Positions 6,181 through 42,161 of a stretch of 64,000 bases of DNA are shown here, piece after piece. The notes beneath the pieces were generated by a model, which was given only the letters and a program-made list of their open reading frames with translations, had not been told where the DNA came from and ran no database searches. Position numbers and translations under genes: made by a program. Numbering within the stretch: the first letter of the stretch is position 1; every line of letters begins with the position of its first letter. The stretch comes from a virus (lineage: Duplodnaviria > Caudoviricetes): the IMG/VR virus record IMGVR_UViG_3300045996_000612, positions 779-64,778 of that record; one strand, given 5' to 3'.

Positions 6181-7284
6181 TCAGGCTGCGTTCGGATCTT
6201 TCGCAGCGGTGTCGATCGAGATCACACCGAAGTCCTTGTTGTTGAAACGGGCCTTCTTGATGCCGGCGATGAAGCCCGACGCGATCTGCGGGTTGTTGCC
6301 GAAGTCGTCGACTTCCTCTTCCCAGGTGTAGCGCATGCCACCGCCCGAGTTGCCGTAGGCGACCACGCCAGCCTGGCGGCCCAGGAACAGGGCGCGCGCG
6401 GCGTTCACGTTCGAGCTGGCGCCGTAGTCGCTGAAGCGGATGACCGAGCGGTGCGCATGCAGCACGGTGTTGCCCAGCAGGCCAAGCTGACCCTTGAAGA
6501 TCGGGTTGTTGCGACCTTCGCTGGCAGCGGCTGCCTTCTGGAAGTCCACCCAGCCAGCGGTGTCGGCGGTGCGCAGATCGAATGCCTGGTCTTCCGACAT
6601 CAGCAGCACATACTGATCTTCGGCGCCGTTGCTAACCGGGACCATGTTGGCGGTTTCCGGGTTACGGGCTTGCATCATTTTGCCCTTATTCTGGGCACGC
6701 TCGACAACCAAACGGGTCATCTTGTCGGCGGCGGTCAGGGTCGCCTTGCTGGTCGCCGGGCCGGCGTACAAAATGTGATCGGCGTCCGGTGCCTGCAGGG
6801 CGTTACCGGCGAAGCCAGCGAAGGAGGTGTCTTCGATGAAGTCCTCGTTGATGCCGCGCGCGCCCGACAGGTAGATGAAGAAGAATTCGTCGACCAGCTT
6901 GGCGAAGTAGTCGGACAGGCGGCCCTTACCGATCTTGCGCACGTCGTGGACGATGCGCTTGCGGCTCATCTTGCCGCCCAGATCGATACCGTGACGCACC
7001 TGGTCGATGACCACTTCGTCGGTGAAGAACTTGATGCCTTCGGTCTTGCCCTTCAGCTTGGCGTCGCCGTAGGTCGGCTTGCCACGGAGCTGGACGCACA
7101 GGTCGAACGACACGCGATCGCCGGCGTCGGACTCCAGGTCGTTCTTCTTCTGGATGATGTGGTTGTCCGAGTCGCCGATGAAACGGCCCTCGAAGTAGGA
7201 TTTGCGCGCGTGGTCGATCGCCAGGTTGGTCGACCACTTCTTTTGGGTCTTGACGTCGGAAGTACCGAATACGGTGCCGCTCAT
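6181..7284 (-). CDS. Major capsid protein (N4-gp56/DUF4043-like)
   Basis: 367 aa; LESDAGDRVSFDL.VQL, IDQVRH, RALFLGRQAG and DFGVISIDTA motifs; downstream of portal and scaffold. Confidence 0.9.
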   Translation of the reverse strand: MSGTVFGTSDVKTQKKWSTNLAIDHARKSYFEGRFIGDSDNHIIQKKNDLESDAGDRVSFDLCVQLRGKPTYGDAKLKGKTEGIKFFTDEVVIDQVRHGIDLGGKMSRKRIVHDVRKIGKGRLSDYFAKLVDEFFFIYLSGARGINEDFIEDTSFAGFAGNALQAPDADHILYAGPATSKATLTAADKMTRLVVERAQNKGKMMQARNPETANMVPVSNGAEDQYVLLMSEDQAFDLRTADTAGWVDFQKAAAASEGRNNPIFKGQLGLLGNTVLHAHRSVIRFSDYGASSNVNAARALFLGRQAGVVAYGNSGGGMRYTWEEEVDDFGNNPQIASGFIAGIKKARFNNKDFGVISIDTAAKDPNAA

Positions 7285-7387
7285 GGTGGAGTGCCTTTCA
7301 AAAGAGTTGATGGTTCAACGCTTTTCGGCACGTCCTGCGCGGAAAAACTGGTACGATTATCCGACGGATGGTTAGAAAATGCAACCG
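7285..7387 (-). promoter_or_regulatory. Capsid promoter and structured 5' leader with a GGA hairpin
   Basis: TTGCAT(7384-7379)-17 bp-GATAAT(7361-7356); GCGC-AGGAC-GTGC hairpin at 7340-7328; operator palindrome at 7369-7387. Confidence 0.7.
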
Positions 7388-7388
7388 T

Positions 7389-7874
7389 TTAGGGCATGTC
7401 AGGCCACCACCGATTATATTTTTGAATGTTTTCCCTGCGTCGAAGTATTTGCAGATTTGCCTCGCAATGTAAGCCGGACACAATTGGAGACTTGAGCGGG
7501 ACGATGTGATCCACCGACCATACAGCCGCCCCCTCGGCGCGATTGCGCCGGATAACCTCTGCGTAGAGTGTCTCCATGGCCTCTTGATTGGCCCACTTCG
7601 GAATTACAGCACCATTCCCCGTGCGGAATTGGGCAGCACCCCTTGCTTTGTGGCGAGCATCTTTTCGATCAACGATCTGTGGATTTTCTTGCCGATATTG
7701 CCTGTTGTCAGCAGAGGCTCGCAGGGAGGTCCGCTCAATGTGCTGACATGTGACGCACACCTTGTTTAGTGTGTACCGTTCGCATAGATGCCCATGCTTA
7801 CAAGGTTTGCCGGTGAAGTATTTTTTGAGGCCGTGAGCAAGCGCCTCTCTGCGAGAGATGAGATGCAATTCCAT
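7389..7874 (-). CDS. HNH homing endonuclease
   Basis: YFTGKPCKHGH..RY....CVTC N-terminus; VDHIVPL...VSGLH..ANLQIL...EN..K.N HNH motif; lower GC than flanks. Confidence 0.85.
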   Translation of the reverse strand: MELHLISRREALAHGLKKYFTGKPCKHGHLCERYTLNKVCVTCQHIERTSLRASADNRQYRQENPQIVDRKDARHKARGAAQFRTGNGAVIPKWANQEAMETLYAEVIRRNRAEGAAVWSVDHIVPLKSPIVSGLHCEANLQILRRRENIQKYNRWWPDMP

Positions 7875-7956
7875 ATAACTGTCCCAAGTTATCGCCCCAA
7901 GTAGTAGTGGGGAAATCCGTGGGACAACGGACTTTCGGGTTGCATGCCCTATCCCC
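7875..7956 (-). ncRNA. Structured cis-RNA upstream of HNH gene (c4-like three-way junction)
   Basis: GGGGA/TCCCC closing stem with GGG/CCC and TCCG/CGGA inner helices; loop TTGTCCCA complementary to RBS-loop TGGGACA; TATAAT just upstream. Confidence 0.5.
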
Positions 7957-7971
7957 AAAGGAATTATACAA

Positions 7972-8163
7972 CTAATCCTTGCCTGTGATCCCGTGTGCGG
8001 CTGCAAATTGCACAACCTTACTCCTATCTTGCACTCGGCTGATAGGAACCGACTTGTCCGCCCTGACGGCAAGGCGCGCAATCTGACCCGATTTCGCCTC
8101 CAACGTGACAATGACGTCGCCGATCGAGATAGATTCACCGGGTTTGATGTCGATTTTGAACAA
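7972..8163 (-). CDS. csrA: CsrA/RsmA-like RNA-binding protein
   Basis: 63 aa; KPGESISIGDVIVT....G..ARLAV.A.KSV.I.R aligns to the CsrA consensus; TTG start with GAGAGG SD; same position as in Bcep22-like phages. Confidence 0.7.
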   Translation of the reverse strand: MFKIDIKPGESISIGDVIVTLEAKSGQIARLAVRADKSVPISRVQDRSKVVQFAAAHGITGKD

Positions 8164-8184
8164 GTCGGCCTCTCAGGTAGTGGG

Positions 8185-9132
8185 TTATTCAGCCAGGTAC
8201 GCTTCGCGATCGGCGTCGGACAGCTTGGCCAGCGCCGCCTCGTAGGCACCGGGATTGGTGTCCATCAGGCGGTCCAGGCTGGCAAAGCGACCTTCGCCGG
8301 GGTTGTTCGCCGCAGCGGCCGGCAGGCGCGAGATGTCCGGCGGCAGGTCCGGTTTCGGCGCGCCCTTCTTGGCGGCGGGCGCCGGCGCCGGATCTTTCTT
8401 GGCTGGCGTCTTGGCGATGCCGGCTTCGACCAGGTTGGCATGGGCCTTGGACAGCACCTGCGCATCGGTCAGGTTCGGCTCGGCCTTGGCCACGTCGCGC
8501 ACTTCCATGTCCAGCGCGCGGTACAGGCGCGGGTTGGCGGTGTAGCCGTTCTTCTCGGCGAAGTTGTTGGCATAGGCCACCCATTCGTTCTGGCGGCGCT
8601 GCAATTCCATCTCGGTGGCCAGTTGCGCGCGCTCGACCTGGCGCTCGATGGTGCGTTCCTGCTTGACCAGTTCGTCCTTCTGCGCCTCGTACTCGTCGAA
8701 GGTCAGGTCGCCGTCGTCGTAGTGCTTGCGCAGGTCGGCCTTTTGGGTGCCGATCGCGGCCAGTTTCGCTTCCGCATCGGCCGGCGCCTCGACAACTAGG
8801 ACGGGAGCGCTCGGCGCTGGGCGCGGTTCATCGGCGGCAACTGGCTGCTGTGCATCGGCAGGCGCAGCCGGGTCTGCTGCGGCAGCGGCGGCTGCATCCA
8901 CGTCAGCGGCAGGATCAGCGCCGCTATCCTGGCCGCCTTCAGGCGCTGCCGGTTGCTGGTCATCGTCTTCATCGTCGTCCTTGCTGGTGGAGGCTGCGGC
9001 TGCCTTGGCTGCGTCTTCGAGTTCGCCCTGCGTGGCGTTCGGGTTTTCATCGTCCGGCTCGGCCAGCGCAGCGCGCTCCTCGGGGGTCAGGCCAGCCAGC
9101 ACTTCGTCTGCGGTATTGTGCACTTCGCTCAT
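8185..9132 (-). CDS. Capsid scaffolding protein
   Basis: Acidic, helical, 315 aa between portal and capsid; ends with E.ALAKLS.A.REAYL. Confidence 0.75.
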   Translation of the reverse strand: MSEVHNTADEVLAGLTPEERAALAEPDDENPNATQGELEDAAKAAAASTSKDDDEDDDQQPAAPEGGQDSGADPAADVDAAAAAAADPAAPADAQQPVAADEPRPAPSAPVLVVEAPADAEAKLAAIGTQKADLRKHYDDGDLTFDEYEAQKDELVKQERTIERQVERAQLATEMELQRRQNEWVAYANNFAEKNGYTANPRLYRALDMEVRDVAKAEPNLTDAQVLSKAHANLVEAGIAKTPAKKDPAPAPAAKKGAPKPDLPPDISRLPAAAANNPGEGRFASLDRLMDTNPGAYEAALAKLSDADREAYLAE

Positions 9133-9133
9133 G

Positions 9134-11377
9134 TCATGCTCCAGGTTGTGGTTGTTGTTCCATCGGCGGCATCGGCTCGGGTGCCGGGGCCGGTGGCTGT
9201 TGAGCCGCTTGCGGCGGCAATCCTTGTGCGGCCAGACCGGCCGGGACTGGCTTCCCACCCGTCCAGCCGCCCTGCATCAGCAGATTGTCGCCCACCTTGG
9301 CGATCGTCGGCTGGGTGATGACCAGCGTCGCTGCTTCCATCGCGGCCTTGGCGCCGGCCATGTTGGCGTTGACGGTATCGGCCTTGATCTTGTCGGTGGC
9401 GGCGCGCAGGTTGTCGGCCTTGGCTTCCTTTTCGGCGATCTCGGCCTCGGCGGCGCGCGCCTGCATCTGCTGCTGGGCGGCCTGCGCCTGCATGGCCTGC
9501 TGCTCTTCTGCGGTCAGTTCGGTCGCTTCCGGGTCGCGCATGCCGTTCATCTGGCGCACGCGCTTGGAAATCTCCTCGCCGTTCGGCAGGTCCATCTGCT
9601 CGACGATCAGGTCCAGCATCAGCATGCCCACTTGCGGCGGCATCTTGGACACCATCTCCGTGAGCTGGTCGACGGCAGCCTGGCGCATGGTCGCGCGCCA
9701 GTCGGACTCGGACACCACGAAATCGGCCTTGGAACGGCTGATGTCGTTCTCGGGCAGCCCGTCGTTCATGGTGATGAATTCCGGCGTGCCGCGCTGGTTG
9801 GTGATGCGGAACTGCTTCTGGTCGGTGACGAACTGCTCGATGTTGCACAGCGTGATCTCGCCATGGAGCTGGACGGCGAAGCGCAGGTTGTCGAACAGTT
9901 TATTGGTGGCCAGCGATCCCTGCTCCTGGCGCGCCAGAATGGCCTTGCCCGACGTGGCATTGGTGCTCTTGCCCATCTGCTCGTCGGTGACGCCGCCAAC
10001 CTGCTGGATCATCATGATGTTGCGGCTCATGAGGTCCAGGTGTGCCGGTGCCAGTTCGCGGTCGACGTCCATCCGCACCTTGTTGCCGGACAGCGCGCCG
10101 TTGGCGAACACCATCAGGGCATCCGGCTTTGCCGCCTCTTCGGCCAAGTCGTCCGGCGTCCAGCCGTCAGCCAGTGCGCCGGTCTCCATGGCGATCTTGT
10201 TGGACGACAGGATGTGCAGTGCCTTCGATGCGCGCTTGTTGATGTCGTCCTGGATGTCGCGCAGGCCGCGGATGATCCCGTAGGGCAGCCCATCTCGCCC
10301 GCGGCGGTAGCCCCACACCGGGATGAACTTCAGGCGATTGTGCTTGAACGGGCTGGGGCCGTCGTACAGCGGATGCGTGGTGGTCATGAACATGACGCGT
10401 GCGCGCATGACGACCTTCTTGTGCAGTTGACCGTTGCCAGACTGGACAGCCTCGACGTGGCGCGGGTCGCGCTTATCGAAAATGTCGCCCTTGAAGGAGC
10501 CGCCCTTGATCTTCTCGACTTCTTCCGGCTCCCGATACCACGCCTCGATCAACCGCACGCGCCGGCGCTTGTGGATGTAGATCGGATTGGTGCCACCGAA
10601 GATTTCTCGGCTCGCTTCCGCGCCGTCCATGGCCTCGTCGCCATCTTCCATCGATGCCGATCCGAAGGTGGCGATCTCGTTGGCCGAGTTCTCCAGCAGG
10701 GATTTGCAGTGCGGGAACATGGCAATCGCAATGTCCAGGTCGACCCACTTGGAGCGGAACTGGTAGCGCATGTCGGACGTGTCCATCTCGGTGGCGGCGC
10801 TGTCCCACAGCATATTGCGCCAGCTCTCGTACCGATCGCCGGTCGGCTCGTCCTCTTCATCGTCCGGTACGCTGGTCTCGATCCAGCCCAGGCCGACCTT
10901 CACGGCATCCTCGAAGGCGCGCGAGCGGTTGAATGGGGTGCGCCAGACGTCGCTGATGTACTTCAGGTATTTGGTCTTGGCCTCGGCCGGCTTTGCATCT
11001 TCGGCACCGCGCGGCAGGATCTTGAAATCGGTGCGCCCGCGCTTCTCCGAGCCGATCACCCAGTTCACGGTCTGTGCGATGACGTTGTAGACGATCGGCG
11101 CCTGGCCGCGGTCCTTGAGCACCTGCGCATCTTCTTCCGTCCATTGCAGGTGGTCGTAGTAGTCCTCGTCCTTGGCCATCTCGGCGCGGTTGGCCGACTG
11201 GACTTCGAGCTCATAGCGGTACTTCGCCACCAGCATGGCGTGGCGATCACGGATGGCCGGCTCATCCATCGGGTGCGCGGGCTTTTCTACCGCGGCACGC
11301 TCGCTTGCTGGCAGGCGGTCGAGCGGGGAATCCTTCCTCGTCTTGGTCAGGCTTTCGTCTTGCAGGTCAAAGGACAT
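9134..11377 (-). CDS. Portal protein (P22-like)
   Basis: 747 aa; YYD..QW, N.I...VNW..G, PYG.IR.LRD.Q...NKR.SK and SG.AI..RQ.QG motifs; Gln-rich barrel. Confidence 0.9.
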   Translation of the reverse strand: MSFDLQDESLTKTRKDSPLDRLPASERAAVEKPAHPMDEPAIRDRHAMLVAKYRYELEVQSANRAEMAKDEDYYDHLQWTEEDAQVLKDRGQAPIVYNVIAQTVNWVIGSEKRGRTDFKILPRGAEDAKPAEAKTKYLKYISDVWRTPFNRSRAFEDAVKVGLGWIETSVPDDEEDEPTGDRYESWRNMLWDSAATEMDTSDMRYQFRSKWVDLDIAIAMFPHCKSLLENSANEIATFGSASMEDGDEAMDGAEASREIFGGTNPIYIHKRRRVRLIEAWYREPEEVEKIKGGSFKGDIFDKRDPRHVEAVQSGNGQLHKKVVMRARVMFMTTTHPLYDGPSPFKHNRLKFIPVWGYRRGRDGLPYGIIRGLRDIQDDINKRASKALHILSSNKIAMETGALADGWTPDDLAEEAAKPDALMVFANGALSGNKVRMDVDRELAPAHLDLMSRNIMMIQQVGGVTDEQMGKSTNATSGKAILARQEQGSLATNKLFDNLRFAVQLHGEITLCNIEQFVTDQKQFRITNQRGTPEFITMNDGLPENDISRSKADFVVSESDWRATMRQAAVDQLTEMVSKMPPQVGMLMLDLIVEQMDLPNGEEISKRVRQMNGMRDPEATELTAEEQQAMQAQAAQQQMQARAAEAEIAEKEAKADNLRAATDKIKADTVNANMAGAKAAMEAATLVITQPTIAKVGDNLLMQGGWTGGKPVPAGLAAQGLPPQAAQQPPAPAPEPMPPMEQQPQPGA

Positions 11378-39566: not shown

Positions 39567-42161
39567 TTAAGCGGCCAGGACCGGCGGGCCGACGTAGGCC
39601 GGCGGGTTGAAGAAGCCGAACGATGCGATGCGATATGACCAGGCGTGCGTTGTCGATGCGGCGATCTCGTCGTAATACCCTTGCATCACCGCGATGGCTT
39701 GATCCAGGCGAGGCACATTCATCTCCGGGAAGTAGTCCCGCAGGATGTACAGGAACTGGGCACGCATGTGCTTGGTGTTGTAGTTGTCCGGCGTGAACGT
39801 TTCATAGCCGCTGACACGCCCGCCGATCTCGCCGGTCGGCTTGCGAATCCAGTCCAGCAGATTGTTGGGCGGGCAAATCTGGCCCCAGTGCTGAGGATGA
39901 ACGAACGCATCGGCAGGCGAGGAGTAGTCAGGAACGTAGGCAGCGTTGTTGTCCCAGCGGCCGTTGCAATCCACAAAGATGCCGACCGCCTGCTTTGCCA
40001 GGCACTCCATCATGAAGTCCAAGATCCACGCGCACTTGGCGGACTTGGCTTTCATCGCGGCCAGGAAACCGGTCTGCTTCATGAACATGAACAGCGCGCC
40101 ATGGTAGTAGGTCTTGTGATCGCTGTTCGGGCGCAGGTAGATCAGGTCACCGACACGTTCAGGCTCGAACACCATGCCGAGATTGCGCAGCGCATGGCCC
40201 CGGATACTGTCCTCCAGGGACAGCGGCTGCATCACGTCATACATCTGCTCCAGCCACTTCTTCATGGAGTTCTCATACTCCGATGCGGAGATGAGCTTGG
40301 GATGGCTGCTGCTCGCCACCCAGCATTTGGCGTGCGTGGCGATATACCAGGCCGACTGCCGGGTCAGGAAAACACTGCGCTGAAACCCCTCGTTGATGTC
40401 GTACGTCACCATTTTGAGAAAGTGGAACGAGTGAGGCGCTTCCAGAATGCCGTGCGCGCTGCGGAGCATATAGGCGCTGTCGGCGCCCGACATCATGCTG
40501 TGGTGGACGTCCTTGCTCCATTCATTGGTGAACGGGCGGCCGTACTTATCCTTGAAGCCATAGCCATTGTCGTATGACTTGCCATTGGTGGCGATGAGCT
40601 GACGGAATGAGTTGTTGGCGGCATCCGGCTTGTTGGGATCGCCATAATACGCATCCGTGACGAAGTAGTCGGAATTGAACGACTTCTGCTTGTTGATGCC
40701 AATGCCCTGTTCGACATCGGTAAAGAAGTGCACACCCTCGTTGGCGGCGCCGCGCAGGAAGTCACGGTGCATCTCTTCCCATGGCACCGCGCCGTGGATG
40801 CGCACGCCATTCGGCTCGCTGGCGTGCATGGTCGTGATGTGCGACCACAGGGCGCGATCCTGCCGCGGCCCGCCATCACCGTTGTACCAGGTGCGCAAGC
40901 AGGTCGAGCCCGGCTCGAAGCCCCAGCCGATGAACTGGGTGCGGTAGTTCTCGCGGATCACCTGCGCGAATGCCATGTTCGGGTCGACGATGTTGGTGTC
41001 CAGGCCGCCGGCGTGCTTTCGCGCCCACTTGGGAGCGTACTTCACATGGCCCAAGCCACTCCAGTTCGCCTGGTTCCGGGTGAGCAGCGGCCAGCGATCG
41101 CTGAAGGAGCCGAACGCCGACAGGTTCTTCGGGTTGCGGCTTTCCAGGGTGACGCCAGGGCACACATGCCGGAAGAATTCATTTTCCTTGGGCTTGTGCG
41201 ACTCCCAGGTCAATTCCATCGCACAGGTCCAGAATGGCTGGCATCCCTGGTTCCAGTGCTCTGCCTTCTGGCCGGCATGGTTGATCGGCTTGCCTGTGCC
41301 GGGAACGCCGTTGACGCGCGTGGACGTCAACTCGAACCATTCCAGCGTCGTCCCGTCCACGGCGAACAGCTCGCCCTTGAAGGCAAGCGGGGCCATCGTG
41401 TCGACGAGCCTGTTCAGGTCTTTTCGGAACGGCCACGATGCCCAGCGCCCGTGCGGCATGGCGCGGACGCGCACCGCGTGCATCGGCTCGGATGCGTCGT
41501 TGTTGACCTCCGAATTCATCGAGGCCACCGCCATGCCGAATAGGTACGCGTCGCCACCCGTGCCCAGAACCACGCCACCGCCAACCGGGGTATGCATCAG
41601 TTTGATGTCGCCGAACTGCGCCGCCATCCAGGGCACATCCAGCACGATGTCGTCGTCCCGCACACTGGCGTAGCAGGTGCCGGTCAGGACCGGATTGGCC
41701 TCATCGGCATAGTCCCAGATGCGGACCCCGGCCGGGGTCTTCGGGTGCTGCGATGGCGTCAGGAAGCCGGTGCCCGACGGCAGCCACTTGGGCGCCTTGA
41801 TGCGGATGCCCGACACGAACCCGACCCCACTGTTGGCTGTCAGGTTGCCACTGAGGATGAAGTCGCAGCCGGAGCCGGGCAGGCCCAGCGTGCCCTCGAC
41901 GACTTTGCCATTTCCCTCGATGCGCAGCACGCCAGTGCCGGTGGAAAGATCCACCACGTTCTTGGTAGTGATGCCCTTCACCTTGCCGATGCTGGTGATG
42001 TTGCCGCCGAGAGTGGTTATTGGCCCAGTCAGCCCGACGTTCAGGAATTCGACCCCATCAAGCAGGCAGCGCACCCGGCGCGAATTGCCGAGCGCGGCGA
42101 TCACATTGTTCGCCCACTGCAGCTTGGTGGTGGCGGGATTGGGGAAATTCAGGGTCAGCAT
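39567..42161 (-). CDS. Large putative virion-attached carbohydrate-active protein
   Basis: 864 aa; N-terminal ~120 aa resembles the 44282-44686 subunit; aromatic-rich helical C-terminus. Confidence 0.55.
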   Translation of the reverse strand: MLTLNFPNPATTKLQWANNVIAALGNSRRVRCLLDGVEFLNVGLTGPITTLGGNITSIGKVKGITTKNVVDLSTGTGVLRIEGNGKVVEGTLGLPGSGCDFILSGNLTANSGVGFVSGIRIKAPKWLPSGTGFLTPSQHPKTPAGVRIWDYADEANPVLTGTCYASVRDDDIVLDVPWMAAQFGDIKLMHTPVGGGVVLGTGGDAYLFGMAVASMNSEVNNDASEPMHAVRVRAMPHGRWASWPFRKDLNRLVDTMAPLAFKGELFAVDGTTLEWFELTSTRVNGVPGTGKPINHAGQKAEHWNQGCQPFWTCAMELTWESHKPKENEFFRHVCPGVTLESRNPKNLSAFGSFSDRWPLLTRNQANWSGLGHVKYAPKWARKHAGGLDTNIVDPNMAFAQVIRENYRTQFIGWGFEPGSTCLRTWYNGDGGPRQDRALWSHITTMHASEPNGVRIHGAVPWEEMHRDFLRGAANEGVHFFTDVEQGIGINKQKSFNSDYFVTDAYYGDPNKPDAANNSFRQLIATNGKSYDNGYGFKDKYGRPFTNEWSKDVHHSMMSGADSAYMLRSAHGILEAPHSFHFLKMVTYDINEGFQRSVFLTRQSAWYIATHAKCWVASSSHPKLISASEYENSMKKWLEQMYDVMQPLSLEDSIRGHALRNLGMVFEPERVGDLIYLRPNSDHKTYYHGALFMFMKQTGFLAAMKAKSAKCAWILDFMMECLAKQAVGIFVDCNGRWDNNAAYVPDYSSPADAFVHPQHWGQICPPNNLLDWIRKPTGEIGGRVSGYETFTPDNYNTKHMRAQFLYILRDYFPEMNVPRLDQAIAVMQGYYDEIAASTTHAWSYRIASFGFFNPPAYVGPPVLAA

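What the first reader, a model, noticed from the sequence alone, without database searches (positions are those of the whole stretch)
7282..8163. Candidate phage CsrA-operated RNA switch that activates capsid translation
Seen: the capsid mRNA leader reads GCGCAGGACGUGCCGAAAAGCGUUGAACCAUCAACUCUUUUGAAAGGCACUCCACC-AUG. Fold A is one long hairpin, GGA(C)GUGCC/GGCACUCC plus AAAAG/CUUUU plus GUUGA/UCAAC, which buries both the GGA and the weak SD (AAAGG). Fold B is a short GCGC-AGGAC-GUGC hairpin presenting AGGA in its loop; it uses the same GUGC and so frees the RBS. Established: CsrA/RsmA binds GGA in hairpin loops and usually represses. A CsrA-like gene lies two genes upstream, right after the scaffold gene. 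Inference: the phage CsrA acts as an activator that couples capsid synthesis to portal/scaffold operon expression. I know of no described function for these phage CsrA genes.
Basis: partly seen in the sequence, partly recalled or inferred. Interest (0 to 1): 0.8.

Follow-up and report, generated by a model that had tools for sequence, protein, structure and literature searches.

The report
Two-state RNA leader before phage capsid
The messenger RNA leader of this phage's major capsid gene can fold in two mutually exclusive ways, one hiding the ribosome site, and this design is conserved in many related phages that mostly also carry a small CsrA-like RNA-binding protein, which may be the switch's operator.

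Summary
On the minus strand lie portal, scaffold, a CsrA-like gene (8163..7972), an inserted HNH-type ORF (7874..7389), a promoter-like site, a leader of about 65 nt, and the capsid gene (7284..6181).

The leader's best fold (-25.3 kcal/mol, z -3.07) pairs GGA-GUGCC with GGCACUCC. That buries the GG of the weak SD and part of the AUG. A 4-bp hairpin, GCGC-AGGAC-GUGC, competes for the same GUGC.

Both folds are kept in relatives:
- 141 of 166 unique leaders of the first 197 loci carry the strict motif.
- 132 of those 141 predict the long fold.
- Both folds show compensatory changes.

The CsrA link is only partly supported. The gene sits upstream of the capsid in 141 loci. It was found elsewhere in 7 of 7 near-complete records that lacked it there, and in 0 of 10 hairpin-less records. 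Phylogenetic contrasts are too few to test this.

Only 82 of 166 hairpin loops hold GGA. The G/U variation is explained by pairing in the long fold: U pairs with the A of the AUG. The same protein family occurs in phages with no capsid leader.

Activation by the CsrA-like protein is the most coherent reading for this window, but it is unproven. No Rfam family matches, and I found no paper describing the element.

The parts
7972..8163 (-). CsrA-like gene: 63 aa, TTG start, PHROG 8397. It keeps I4 and R43, which align with CsrA L4 and R44.
7389..7874 (-). HNH/endonuclease-VII-like ORF of 161 aa. It is an insertion between the CsrA-like gene and the capsid promoter, in a low-G+C stretch. It is not part of the switch.
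   Evidence: Relatives have only 47-191 nt here.
7356..7384 (-). Promoter-like site: TTGCAT (7384..7379), 17-nt spacer, GATAAT (7361..7356). The inferred start is near A7349.
   Evidence: Read. The consensus scan did not list it (3 of 6 in the first hexamer). The same layout is seen in L001-L004. A loose pattern is found in 62 of 141 leaders against 58 of 2820 shuffles. The transcription start is inferred.
7328..7340 (-). Fold B mini-hairpin: GCGC, loop AGGAC, GUGC.
7277..7342 (-). Fold A: a long interrupted hairpin. The 5' arm is 7335..7327 and the 3' arm 7295..7288. The outer pairs reach the start codon and codons 2-3.
7294..7298 (-). Weak Shine-Dalgarno AAAGG. Its GG is paired in Fold A.
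6181..7284 (-). Major capsid gene (PF13252, 367 aa). Start codon at 7284..7282.
8185..9138 (-). Scaffold-like gene (PHROG 8246), upstream of the CsrA-like gene. Start taken at the ATG at 9138..9136; one search lists the frame from a GTG at 9258.
9134..11377 (-). Portal gene (P22_portal PF16510).

Best explanation
The capsid mRNA starts at its own promoter-like site and carries a conserved two-state leader.

State A is the thermodynamic default. It is a long hairpin in which the 3' half of a near-invariant 5' motif (GCGC-AKGA-GUGC) pairs with the stretch between the Shine-Dalgarno and the AUG. In many relatives it pairs with the AUG itself. Initiation is blocked.

State B is a 4-bp mini-hairpin formed by the motif alone. 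It forms first during transcription, shows a purine-rich tetra- or pentaloop, and leaves the ribosome site open.

The most likely operator is the phage's own CsrA-like protein, made from the portal-scaffold operon. By binding hairpin B it would hold the leader open and switch capsid translation on.

What is shown: both folds, their conservation and covariation, and the synteny.
What is inferred: the transcription start, binding by the CsrA-like protein, and activation rather than repression.
For: Fold A in the window:
- -25.3 kcal/mol, z -3.07, 1 of 200 shuffles.

Conservation:
- The strict motif is in 141 of 166 unique leaders from the first 197 loci plus the window.
- In 132 of those 141 the minimum-energy fold pairs the motif's 3' half with the pre-AUG region. 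In 2 it forms hairpin B, and in 7 neither.
- Mean z is -2.96, and 109 of 141 fall below -2.
- Positions -13..+3 are 75% paired in the best fold and 49% paired when B is forced. B costs 8.1 kcal/mol on average.

Covariation:
- Fold B, on 50 aligned leaders: 200 of 200 cells paired, with 4 G-C to A-U double changes. None of 500 shuffles reach the covariation score.
- Fold A: 80.7% of 399 cells paired, against 35-55% when the partners are slid. 26 cells carry double changes; 0 of 500 shuffles reach that.
- A leader's own motif against its own pre-AUG stretch gives -13.15 kcal/mol, against -9.54 for foreign partners. 0 of 2000 permutations reach this.
- Distant relatives keep the AGGA or AAGA loop on other stems: GGCC/GGCC, GGCUC/GGGCC, AGCUC/GAGCU.

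Link to the CsrA-like gene:
- It lies on the same strand upstream of the capsid in 141 loci, mostly 47-191 nt away.
- It was found elsewhere in 7 of 7 near-complete virus records that lacked it upstream.
- It was found in 0 of 10 hairpin-less records.
- The hairpin is present in 135 of 167 leaders with the gene and 4 of 11 tested without it. The chance rate is 89 of 4460 shuffles.
- The covariance model finds only this one copy in the window.

Precedent, from passages of PMC7652899:
- CsrA prefers GGA in the loop of short hairpins.
- CsrA opens the SD-sequestering ymdA hairpin.
- GGA that is base-paired binds poorly.
Against: - Only 82 of 166 loops hold GGA.
- The G/U choice tracks Fold A pairing, not a protein code.
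- Enteric-host relatives have AAGAC and AUGAC loops.
- The R44-equivalent Arg is present in 54 of 100 proteins. Its raw link with GGA loops (43 of 53 against 11 of 47) does not survive independent contrasts.
- Co-occurrence of gene and hairpin rests on 4 independent contrasts: about 2.2 go the same way and none the other, p at least 0.25.
- L171 has the hairpin, but no CsrA-like gene was found in its genome. The near-palindromic variant of L176/L178 also lacks one.
- The same protein family lies four genes downstream of the capsid in an F116-like Pseudomonas phage and in a Bacillus phage. Their capsid genes follow the scaffold after 11-12 nt, with no leader.
- The three-way pairing constraint could by itself explain why the motif is invariant.
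- There are no binding, expression or transcript-end data.
Confidence: 0.4

Rival explanations
1. Protein-free control by delayed folding. Hairpin B is a kinetic trap that keeps the ribosome site open only on nascent transcripts. Once Fold A forms, the mRNA is silent. No trans factor is needed, and the CsrA-like gene is a bystander.
For: - Fold A is the predicted default in 132 of 141 leaders, and B is 8 kcal/mol less stable.
- B lies 5' and would form first.
- The shared GUGC segment has two partners, which alone can explain the invariance.
- Loops without GGA are common.
- The design resembles the MS2 maturation-gene leader. I recall that from memory and did not read it here.
Against: - The loop sequence A-K-G-A stays while the stems change in distant relatives. 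That points to recognition of the loop.
- A capsid protein needed in hundreds of copies per particle is an odd target for translation limited to nascent RNA.
- CsrA-less relatives have open, A-rich leaders with strong SD sites instead.
Confidence: 0.2
2. The CsrA-like protein binds the leader but represses. One face of the dimer holds the 5' hairpin loop and the other an SD-proximal GGA, as CsrA does on Bacillus hag mRNA. This limits or balances capsid synthesis.
For: - Many relatives have AGGAG or GGAG as SD, 35-45 nt after the loop. That is within the 10-63 nt bridging range given in PMC7652899.
- Repression is CsrA's usual mode, according to the same review.
Against: - The window's SD (AAAGG) has no GGA, and its leader has a single GGA.
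- A repressor added to an already closed ribosome site seems redundant.
Confidence: 0.13
3. The leader is operated or processed by something else: a host factor, another phage protein, RNase III cutting the long hairpin, or a 5' hairpin that protects against RNase E. The CsrA-like protein has another job, such as reprogramming the host or a role in the virion or its assembly.
For: - PHROG 8397 genes sit inside structural modules of phages that have no capsid leader.
- One CsrA peptide was found in JC1 virions (PMC9144972, passages).
- The literature proposes host or CRISPR manipulation (PMC8450108, passages).
- GGA and Arg are not conserved.
Against: - The gene and the hairpin go together wherever both could be scored.
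- Hairpin B has the form of the SELEX CsrA ligands described in the review.
- The Burkholderia hosts are reported to lack chromosomal csrA (PMC7366521, passages), so a host-network role is less obvious there.
Confidence: 0.22
4. Chance complementarity with no function.
For: One of 200 shuffles folds as well as the window's leader.
Against: The element is conserved and covaries across 141 strict-motif leaders, with capsid identity down to about 45%.
Confidence: 0.01

Closest known systems
CsrA activation of E. coli ymdA translation (Renda et al. 2020, as described in PMC7652899; passages read)
   Same: A leader hairpin sequesters the SD. A CsrA-family protein would bind at or in the 5' arm and open it.
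   Different: ymdA has two CsrA sites, while this window has one GGA. Here the binding site would be an alternative hairpin, not single-stranded RNA. The protein is a divergent phage paralogue, and half of the related loops lack GGA. Nothing is tested.
Bacillus subtilis CsrA-FliW-Hag control of flagellin (as described in PMC7652899; passages read)
   Same: A CsrA-family gene is embedded in an assembly gene cluster. Its likely target is the leader of the most abundant structural subunit: a 5' hairpin site plus an SD site in some relatives.
   Different: The Bacillus system represses and needs FliW. No FliW-like partner was sought or found here. The window's SD has no GGA.
MS2 maturation-gene leader, translational control by delayed RNA folding
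   Same: A 5' sequence pairs at long range with the ribosome site, and a small 5' hairpin competes for it.
   Different: MS2 is an RNA phage and needs no protein. Here a loop sequence is conserved on changing stems, and an RNA-binding protein gene travels with the element.
Phage CsrA/RsmA homologues listed as 'moron' or anti-defence candidates (PMC7366521, PMC8450108, PMC9144972, PMC11879866; passages read)
   Same: The same genes are listed (DC1, GP4, JC1). Their function is stated as unknown. Knockdown of a csrA homologue in coliphage PTXU04 reduced plaque size.
   Different: In the passages I read, and among the titles and abstract openings that searches listed, none mentions the capsid leader, a phage-encoded target, or the fixed place of the gene in the head module. 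PTXU04 did not appear among the 49 records that match the window's protein.

Membership tests
CsrA/RsmA protein family (PF02599) | Sequence match to the family model | tested here: met
   The Pfam match is borderline: 28 bits against a cutoff of 27, E 2e-6. A profile of 19 phage members matches RsmE 2jpp at E 5e-12 and eight further CsrA-family sequences (CsrA or carbon storage regulator homologues) at E 1e-8 to 7e-7. Three relatives (LKA5_047, Dartukuta_46, LASTA) and L198's protein get no Pfam hit at E 0.01. Three of those four do match PHROG 8397.
CsrA/RsmA protein family (PF02599) | The RNA-binding residues L4 and R44, named critical in PMC7652899 | tested here: inconclusive
   The window has I4 and R43 at the aligned positions. 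Across 100 distinct relatives Arg is at that column in 54. Many others have Arg one position earlier.
CsrA/RsmA protein family (PF02599) | Interleaved homodimer with two RNA-binding faces | not tested
I ran no structure prediction.
CsrA/RsmA protein family (PF02599) | Binds GGA in hairpin loops | not testable with these tools
   Needs EMSA or footprinting. Only 82 of 166 candidate loops contain GGA.
CsrA-opened SD-sequestering leader (ymdA type) | [quoted passage not shown] | tested here: met
   This is a prediction only. It is backed by covariation.
CsrA-opened SD-sequestering leader (ymdA type) | Two CsrA sites, one in the hairpin and one just upstream | tested here: not met
   The window's leader has one GGA, at 7335..7333.
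CsrA repression by SD occlusion (hag/glgC type) | A GGA site overlapping the SD | tested here: not met
   The window's SD is AAAGG. Some relatives do have AGGAG.
Any Rfam family | A match to a curated covariance model | tested here: not met
   No match at E up to 5 in 7100..8300, on either strand.

The most novel reading that the evidence does not exclude
PHROG 8397 proteins are not accessory 'morons'. They are core regulators of head morphogenesis. In Bcep22-like phages the CsrA-like protein and the two-state capsid leader would form an assembly-coupled feedback loop, like flagellin homeostasis (Hag-FliW-CsrA). The conserved C-terminal tail (A.IA..GITGKP) would bind unassembled capsid or scaffold protein, so that capsid translation is matched to procapsid assembly. 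The protein's loop preference (GGA, UGA, AGA) would have drifted away from canonical CsrA.
Probability: 0.12. Interest if true: 0.9.

Novelty: new variant of a known kind. Interest (0 to 1): 0.68.

Why it matters
Phage-encoded CsrA homologues are widespread, and the passages I read state that their role in the phage life cycle was untested until recently (PMC11879866). Proposals so far concern manipulation of the host.

This work gives them a concrete, testable phage target. It is a single conserved RNA hairpin next to the gene, in the leader of the most abundant virion protein.

It also defines a structured 5' leader that is absent from Rfam and found in well over a hundred phages and prophages of Proteobacteria. 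Covariation supports two competing folds.

If the link holds, it would be a translational timer that couples capsid synthesis to the portal-scaffold operon, and a natural case of a CsrA-family protein whose loop preference has diverged. If it fails, the leader still stands as a conserved two-state translational operator whose trigger is unknown.

Tried and rejected
**Checks that led nowhere**
- Rfam scan of 7100..8300: nothing.
- The sigma-70 and terminator scan did not list the promoter-like site, and no minus-strand terminator lies near the leader.
- Search for further copies in the window:
  - A loose pattern gave 18 matches against 9.7 expected. Only the capsid leader has the GUGC arm.
  - The covariance model R1 gave one real hit. 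The next hit (40746..40786, 16 bits) lies antisense inside an 864-aa ORF and was dropped.
- R1 on 100 further loci recovered only 15 at E 0.01. The model is tuned to one clade's spacing, so I relied on anchored scripts instead.
- A strict regex for the motif misclassified variant hairpins (44 CsrA-positive leaders came out 'motif-less'). I replaced it with a hairpin definition.
- L253 was scored CsrA-negative, but only 355 nt lie upstream of its capsid gene. I left it out of the strict tree test.

**Tests with no clear result**
- Independent contrasts for gene against hairpin, and for GGA loop against Arg, were too few to be significant.
- No RNA holder was listed for the window stretch.
- A test of whether the CsrA-like protein binds the capsid protein could not be run.
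- Supplementary tables of the phage-CsrA surveys (PMC7366521, PMC8450108) were not opened. They may list more phages, but by their titles they would not bear on the leader.
- The Bcep22 paper (PMC3187461) is not held.
- For L158 and L149 I took the CsrA-like hit to lie on the locus's own contig, from contig numbering and coordinates. I did not verify this.
Full report
**1. What is in the window**

All the genes concerned are on the minus strand:
- portal, 11377..9134 (P22_portal)
- a scaffold-like gene ending at 8185 (PHROG 8246)
- a 63-aa CsrA-like gene, 8163..7972
- a 161-aa HNH/endonuclease-VII-like ORF, 7874..7389
- about 104 nt of non-coding DNA
- the major capsid gene, 7284..6181 (PF13252)

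G+C falls to 0.47-0.56 over about 7200..8200, against 0.585-0.72 in the flanking windows. In most relatives only 47-191 nt separate the CsrA-like gene from the capsid gene. I therefore read the HNH ORF as a mobile insertion. Its stop codon lies 4 nt before a promoter-like TTGCAT-17-GATAAT site at 7384..7356. The generic scan did not list that site, because its first hexamer matches only 3 of 6. The window is nearly a whole virus record of 64,778 bases.

**2. The observation**

- Fold A is the minimum-energy structure: -25.3 kcal/mol, z -3.07, and 1 of 200 shuffles does as well. In 151 nt of context z is -3.50.
- Fold B (GCGC-AGGAC-GUGC, 7340..7328) uses the same GUGC. The best structure that keeps it is 9.2 kcal/mol less stable.

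**3. Relatives**

The locus belongs to the Bcep22-like podophages (Lessievirus, Gervaisevirus, Cimandefvirus, Ittyvirus and others). A blastn search matched 66 phage records.

I collected these sets:
- four annotated phage loci
- 45 IMG/VR loci from the first search, 80 from the second (12 already held) and 80 from the third
- 80 loci from bacterial genomes

One of these, L118, is identical to the window in its capsid.

In the first 197 loci plus the window there are 166 distinct leaders, and 141 carry a strict GCGC-loop-GUGC type motif 30-95 nt before the AUG. Most of the others carry variants. Examples are GCGU-AGGAC-GUGC, GGGC-AUGGAU-GUCC and GAGC-GCCAUGGAUGG-GCUC.

**4. Evidence for Fold A**

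- In 132 of the 141 leaders the minimum-energy fold pairs the motif's 3' half with the stretch just before the AUG. Two leaders fold as B and seven as neither.
- Mean energy is -22.8 kcal/mol for a mean of 64 nt. Mean z is -2.96, and 109 of 141 fall below -2. The shuffles here were mononucleotide.
- Positions -13..+3 are 75% paired.
- On a MAFFT alignment of 50 leaders, 80.7% of 399 cells pair, against 35-55% when the partners are slid. 26 cells carry changes on both sides, and 0 of 500 shuffles reach this.
- Examples of matched changes are GGAGCGCC/GGCGCUCC, GGAUGUGCC/GGCACAUCC and GGAAGUGC/GCACUUCC.
- A leader's own motif binds its own pre-AUG stretch at -13.15 kcal/mol, against -9.54 for foreign partners. 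0 of 2000 permutations reach that. Relatedness inflates such tests. The variant-specific matches are the stronger argument.

**5. Evidence for Fold B**

- The four core pairs form in 200 of 200 cells. The outer pair switches from G-C to A-U in four leaders and to G-U in four.
- Across the 141 leaders the core is G-C (127), C-G (140), G-U (135) and C-G (141). 63 of them have further flanking pairs of varying type.
- In distant relatives the stem changes outright while the loop stays. Examples are GGCC-AGGA-GGCC, GGCUC-AGGA-GGGCC, AGCUC-AGGA-GAGCU and GGCUC-AAGA-GGGCU. Several leaders carry two such hairpins in tandem.
- A hairpin of at least 4 pairs with loop A[G/U/A]GA plus 0-1 nt occurs in 166 of 223 distinct leaders. 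It occurs in 89 of 4460 shuffles.

**6. The loop and GGA**

Loops read AGGA in 82 hairpins, AUGA in 64 and AAGA in 20.

In the predicted folds the variable second loop base pairs as G-C in 50 leaders and U-A in 49. Of the 50 paired U (the 49 U-A pairs and one U-G), 45 pair with a base of the start codon. An AUGA loop is therefore the complement of the AUG.

GGA is thus not required by the family, and its presence or absence is explained by Fold A. Klebsiella phage LASTA and Erwinia phage Pavtok have AAGAC and AUGAC loops.

**7. The CsrA-like protein**

- At profile level it is a true, if divergent, CsrA relative.
- The window's protein keeps I4 and R43, which align with the L4 and R44 that the review calls critical.
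- In 100 distinct relatives Arg is at that column in 54.
- It goes with GGA loops (43 of 53 against 11 of 47, Fisher 7e-9). On the capsid tree, however, only about 2-3 independent contrasts are informative (p at least 0.25). Many proteins have Arg one position earlier.
- A C-terminal tail, A.IA..GITGKP, is conserved in the Bcep22-like clade.

**8. Does the gene travel with the hairpin?**

- An iterated HMM finds the gene on the same strand upstream of the capsid in 141 loci, and 46 loci lack it there.
- Whole-record searches found it elsewhere in 7 of 7 virus records that are at least 90% complete.
- In one of these the gene follows portal and scaffold on the other strand. In a related provirus of the same type the capsid gene, with its own promoter and the hairpin, sits next to lysis genes and the integrase.
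- Divergent copies turned up directly upstream in L167 and L152, and 1.1 kb upstream in L168.
- Ten records whose capsid leaders are A-rich with a strong SD have no such gene (0 of 10; the records are 52-95% complete). By the hairpin definition, nine of these ten lack the hairpin (five scored directly, four through a near-identical leader), two of them with an unrelated CCCG-AUGAC-CGGG stem. The tenth, L253, has a GGCC-AGGAC-GGCC hairpin, but its record ends 355 nt upstream of the capsid gene.
- Raw table: 135 of 167 leaders with the gene have the hairpin, against 4 of 11 tested without it (Fisher 0.0025).
- On the capsid tree only 4 independent contrasts exist. About 2.2 go the same way and none the other, which is not significant.
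- Exceptions are L171 (hairpin, no gene found) and L176/L178.

**9. A caution from farther relatives**

The same PHROG family is LKA5_047 in an F116-like Pseudomonas phage (E 3e-34) and gene 46 of Bacillus phage Dartukuta (E 8e-21). In both it lies four genes after the capsid. The capsid follows the scaffold after 11-12 nt, with no leader.

The family is therefore a fixture of the morphogenesis module, and not everywhere tied to a capsid leader.

**10. Reading**

- The leader is a conserved two-state translational operator. I put this at about 0.85.
- Because Fold A is the stable state and the product is the most abundant virion protein, something must open it.
- The CsrA-like protein is the best candidate for three reasons: the form of hairpin B, the synteny, and the distribution. 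I put this at about 0.5.
- For this window opening is more coherent than bridging repression, because it has one GGA, none of them in the SD, and paired GGA binds poorly according to the review.
- The rivals are protein-free delayed folding, repression, and another factor or processing. None of them is excluded.

**11. Literature**

I read passages only.
- PMC7366521 lists the DC1 and GP4 CsrA genes and notes that the Burkholderia hosts lack chromosomal csrA.
- PMC9144972 calls the JC1 gene a moron and reports one peptide in virions.
- PMC8450108 proposes suppression of CRISPR.
- PMC11879866 says the role had not been tested, and that knockdown in PTXU04 shrinks plaques.
- Searches listed no paper whose title or abstract opening concerns a capsid leader or a phage RNA target.

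Noticed in passing
window 7389..7874 (-): An HNH/endonuclease-VII-like ORF in a low-G+C stretch is inserted between the CsrA-like gene and the capsid promoter. Other loci carry unrelated insertions at the same place, with gaps of 325-2002 nt in 15 loci.
   Followed up: partly
L300 7256..7462; L303 6363..6557: PHROG 8397 CsrA-like genes in the F116-like phage LKA5 and in Bacillus phage Dartukuta lie four genes downstream of the capsid. There the capsid follows the scaffold after 11-12 nt, with no leader hairpin.
   Followed up: partly
L018 1..3100; L198 1474..3153: In prophages of the kind found in Rhizobium, Agrobacterium and Sinorhizobium genomes, the capsid gene sits beside divergent lysis genes and the integrase. 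It keeps the hairpin and has a conserved TTGCAACAATCC...TATTTAGA site upstream. Portal, scaffold and the CsrA-like gene lie about 30 kb away on the other strand.
   Followed up: partly
L179-L184, L195, L044, L045, L189, L194, L256, L258, L263 (capsid leaders): These leaders have two tandem mini-hairpins of the same type. An example is a 7-bp stem with an AGCA or AGUA loop followed by GGCGC-AGAA-GUGCC.
   Followed up: no
window 7972..8010 (-), and alignment A5: The CsrA-like proteins of the Bcep22-like clade share a conserved C-terminal tail (A.IA..GITGKP) beyond the CsrA core. It could be a partner-binding segment.
   Followed up: no
L300 2675..2700; L303 1940..1965: A run of about 23 nt, near-identical between the two, at or just before the scaffold start is shared by a Pseudomonas phage and a Bacillus phage. 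It probably encodes a conserved N-terminus, which would mean the Bacillus phage's annotated start is too far downstream.
   Followed up: no
L118: A contig binned into an alphaproteobacterial metagenome-assembled genome carries a capsid locus identical to the window's. The phage was probably binned along with a bacterial genome.
   Followed up: no
L001 2340..2400; L003 3120..3150: In Ralstonia phages UAM5 and Heva, a GC-rich hairpin with a T-run (terminator-like) lies just before the capsid promoter-like site. This fits the capsid gene being a transcription unit of its own.
   Followed up: no
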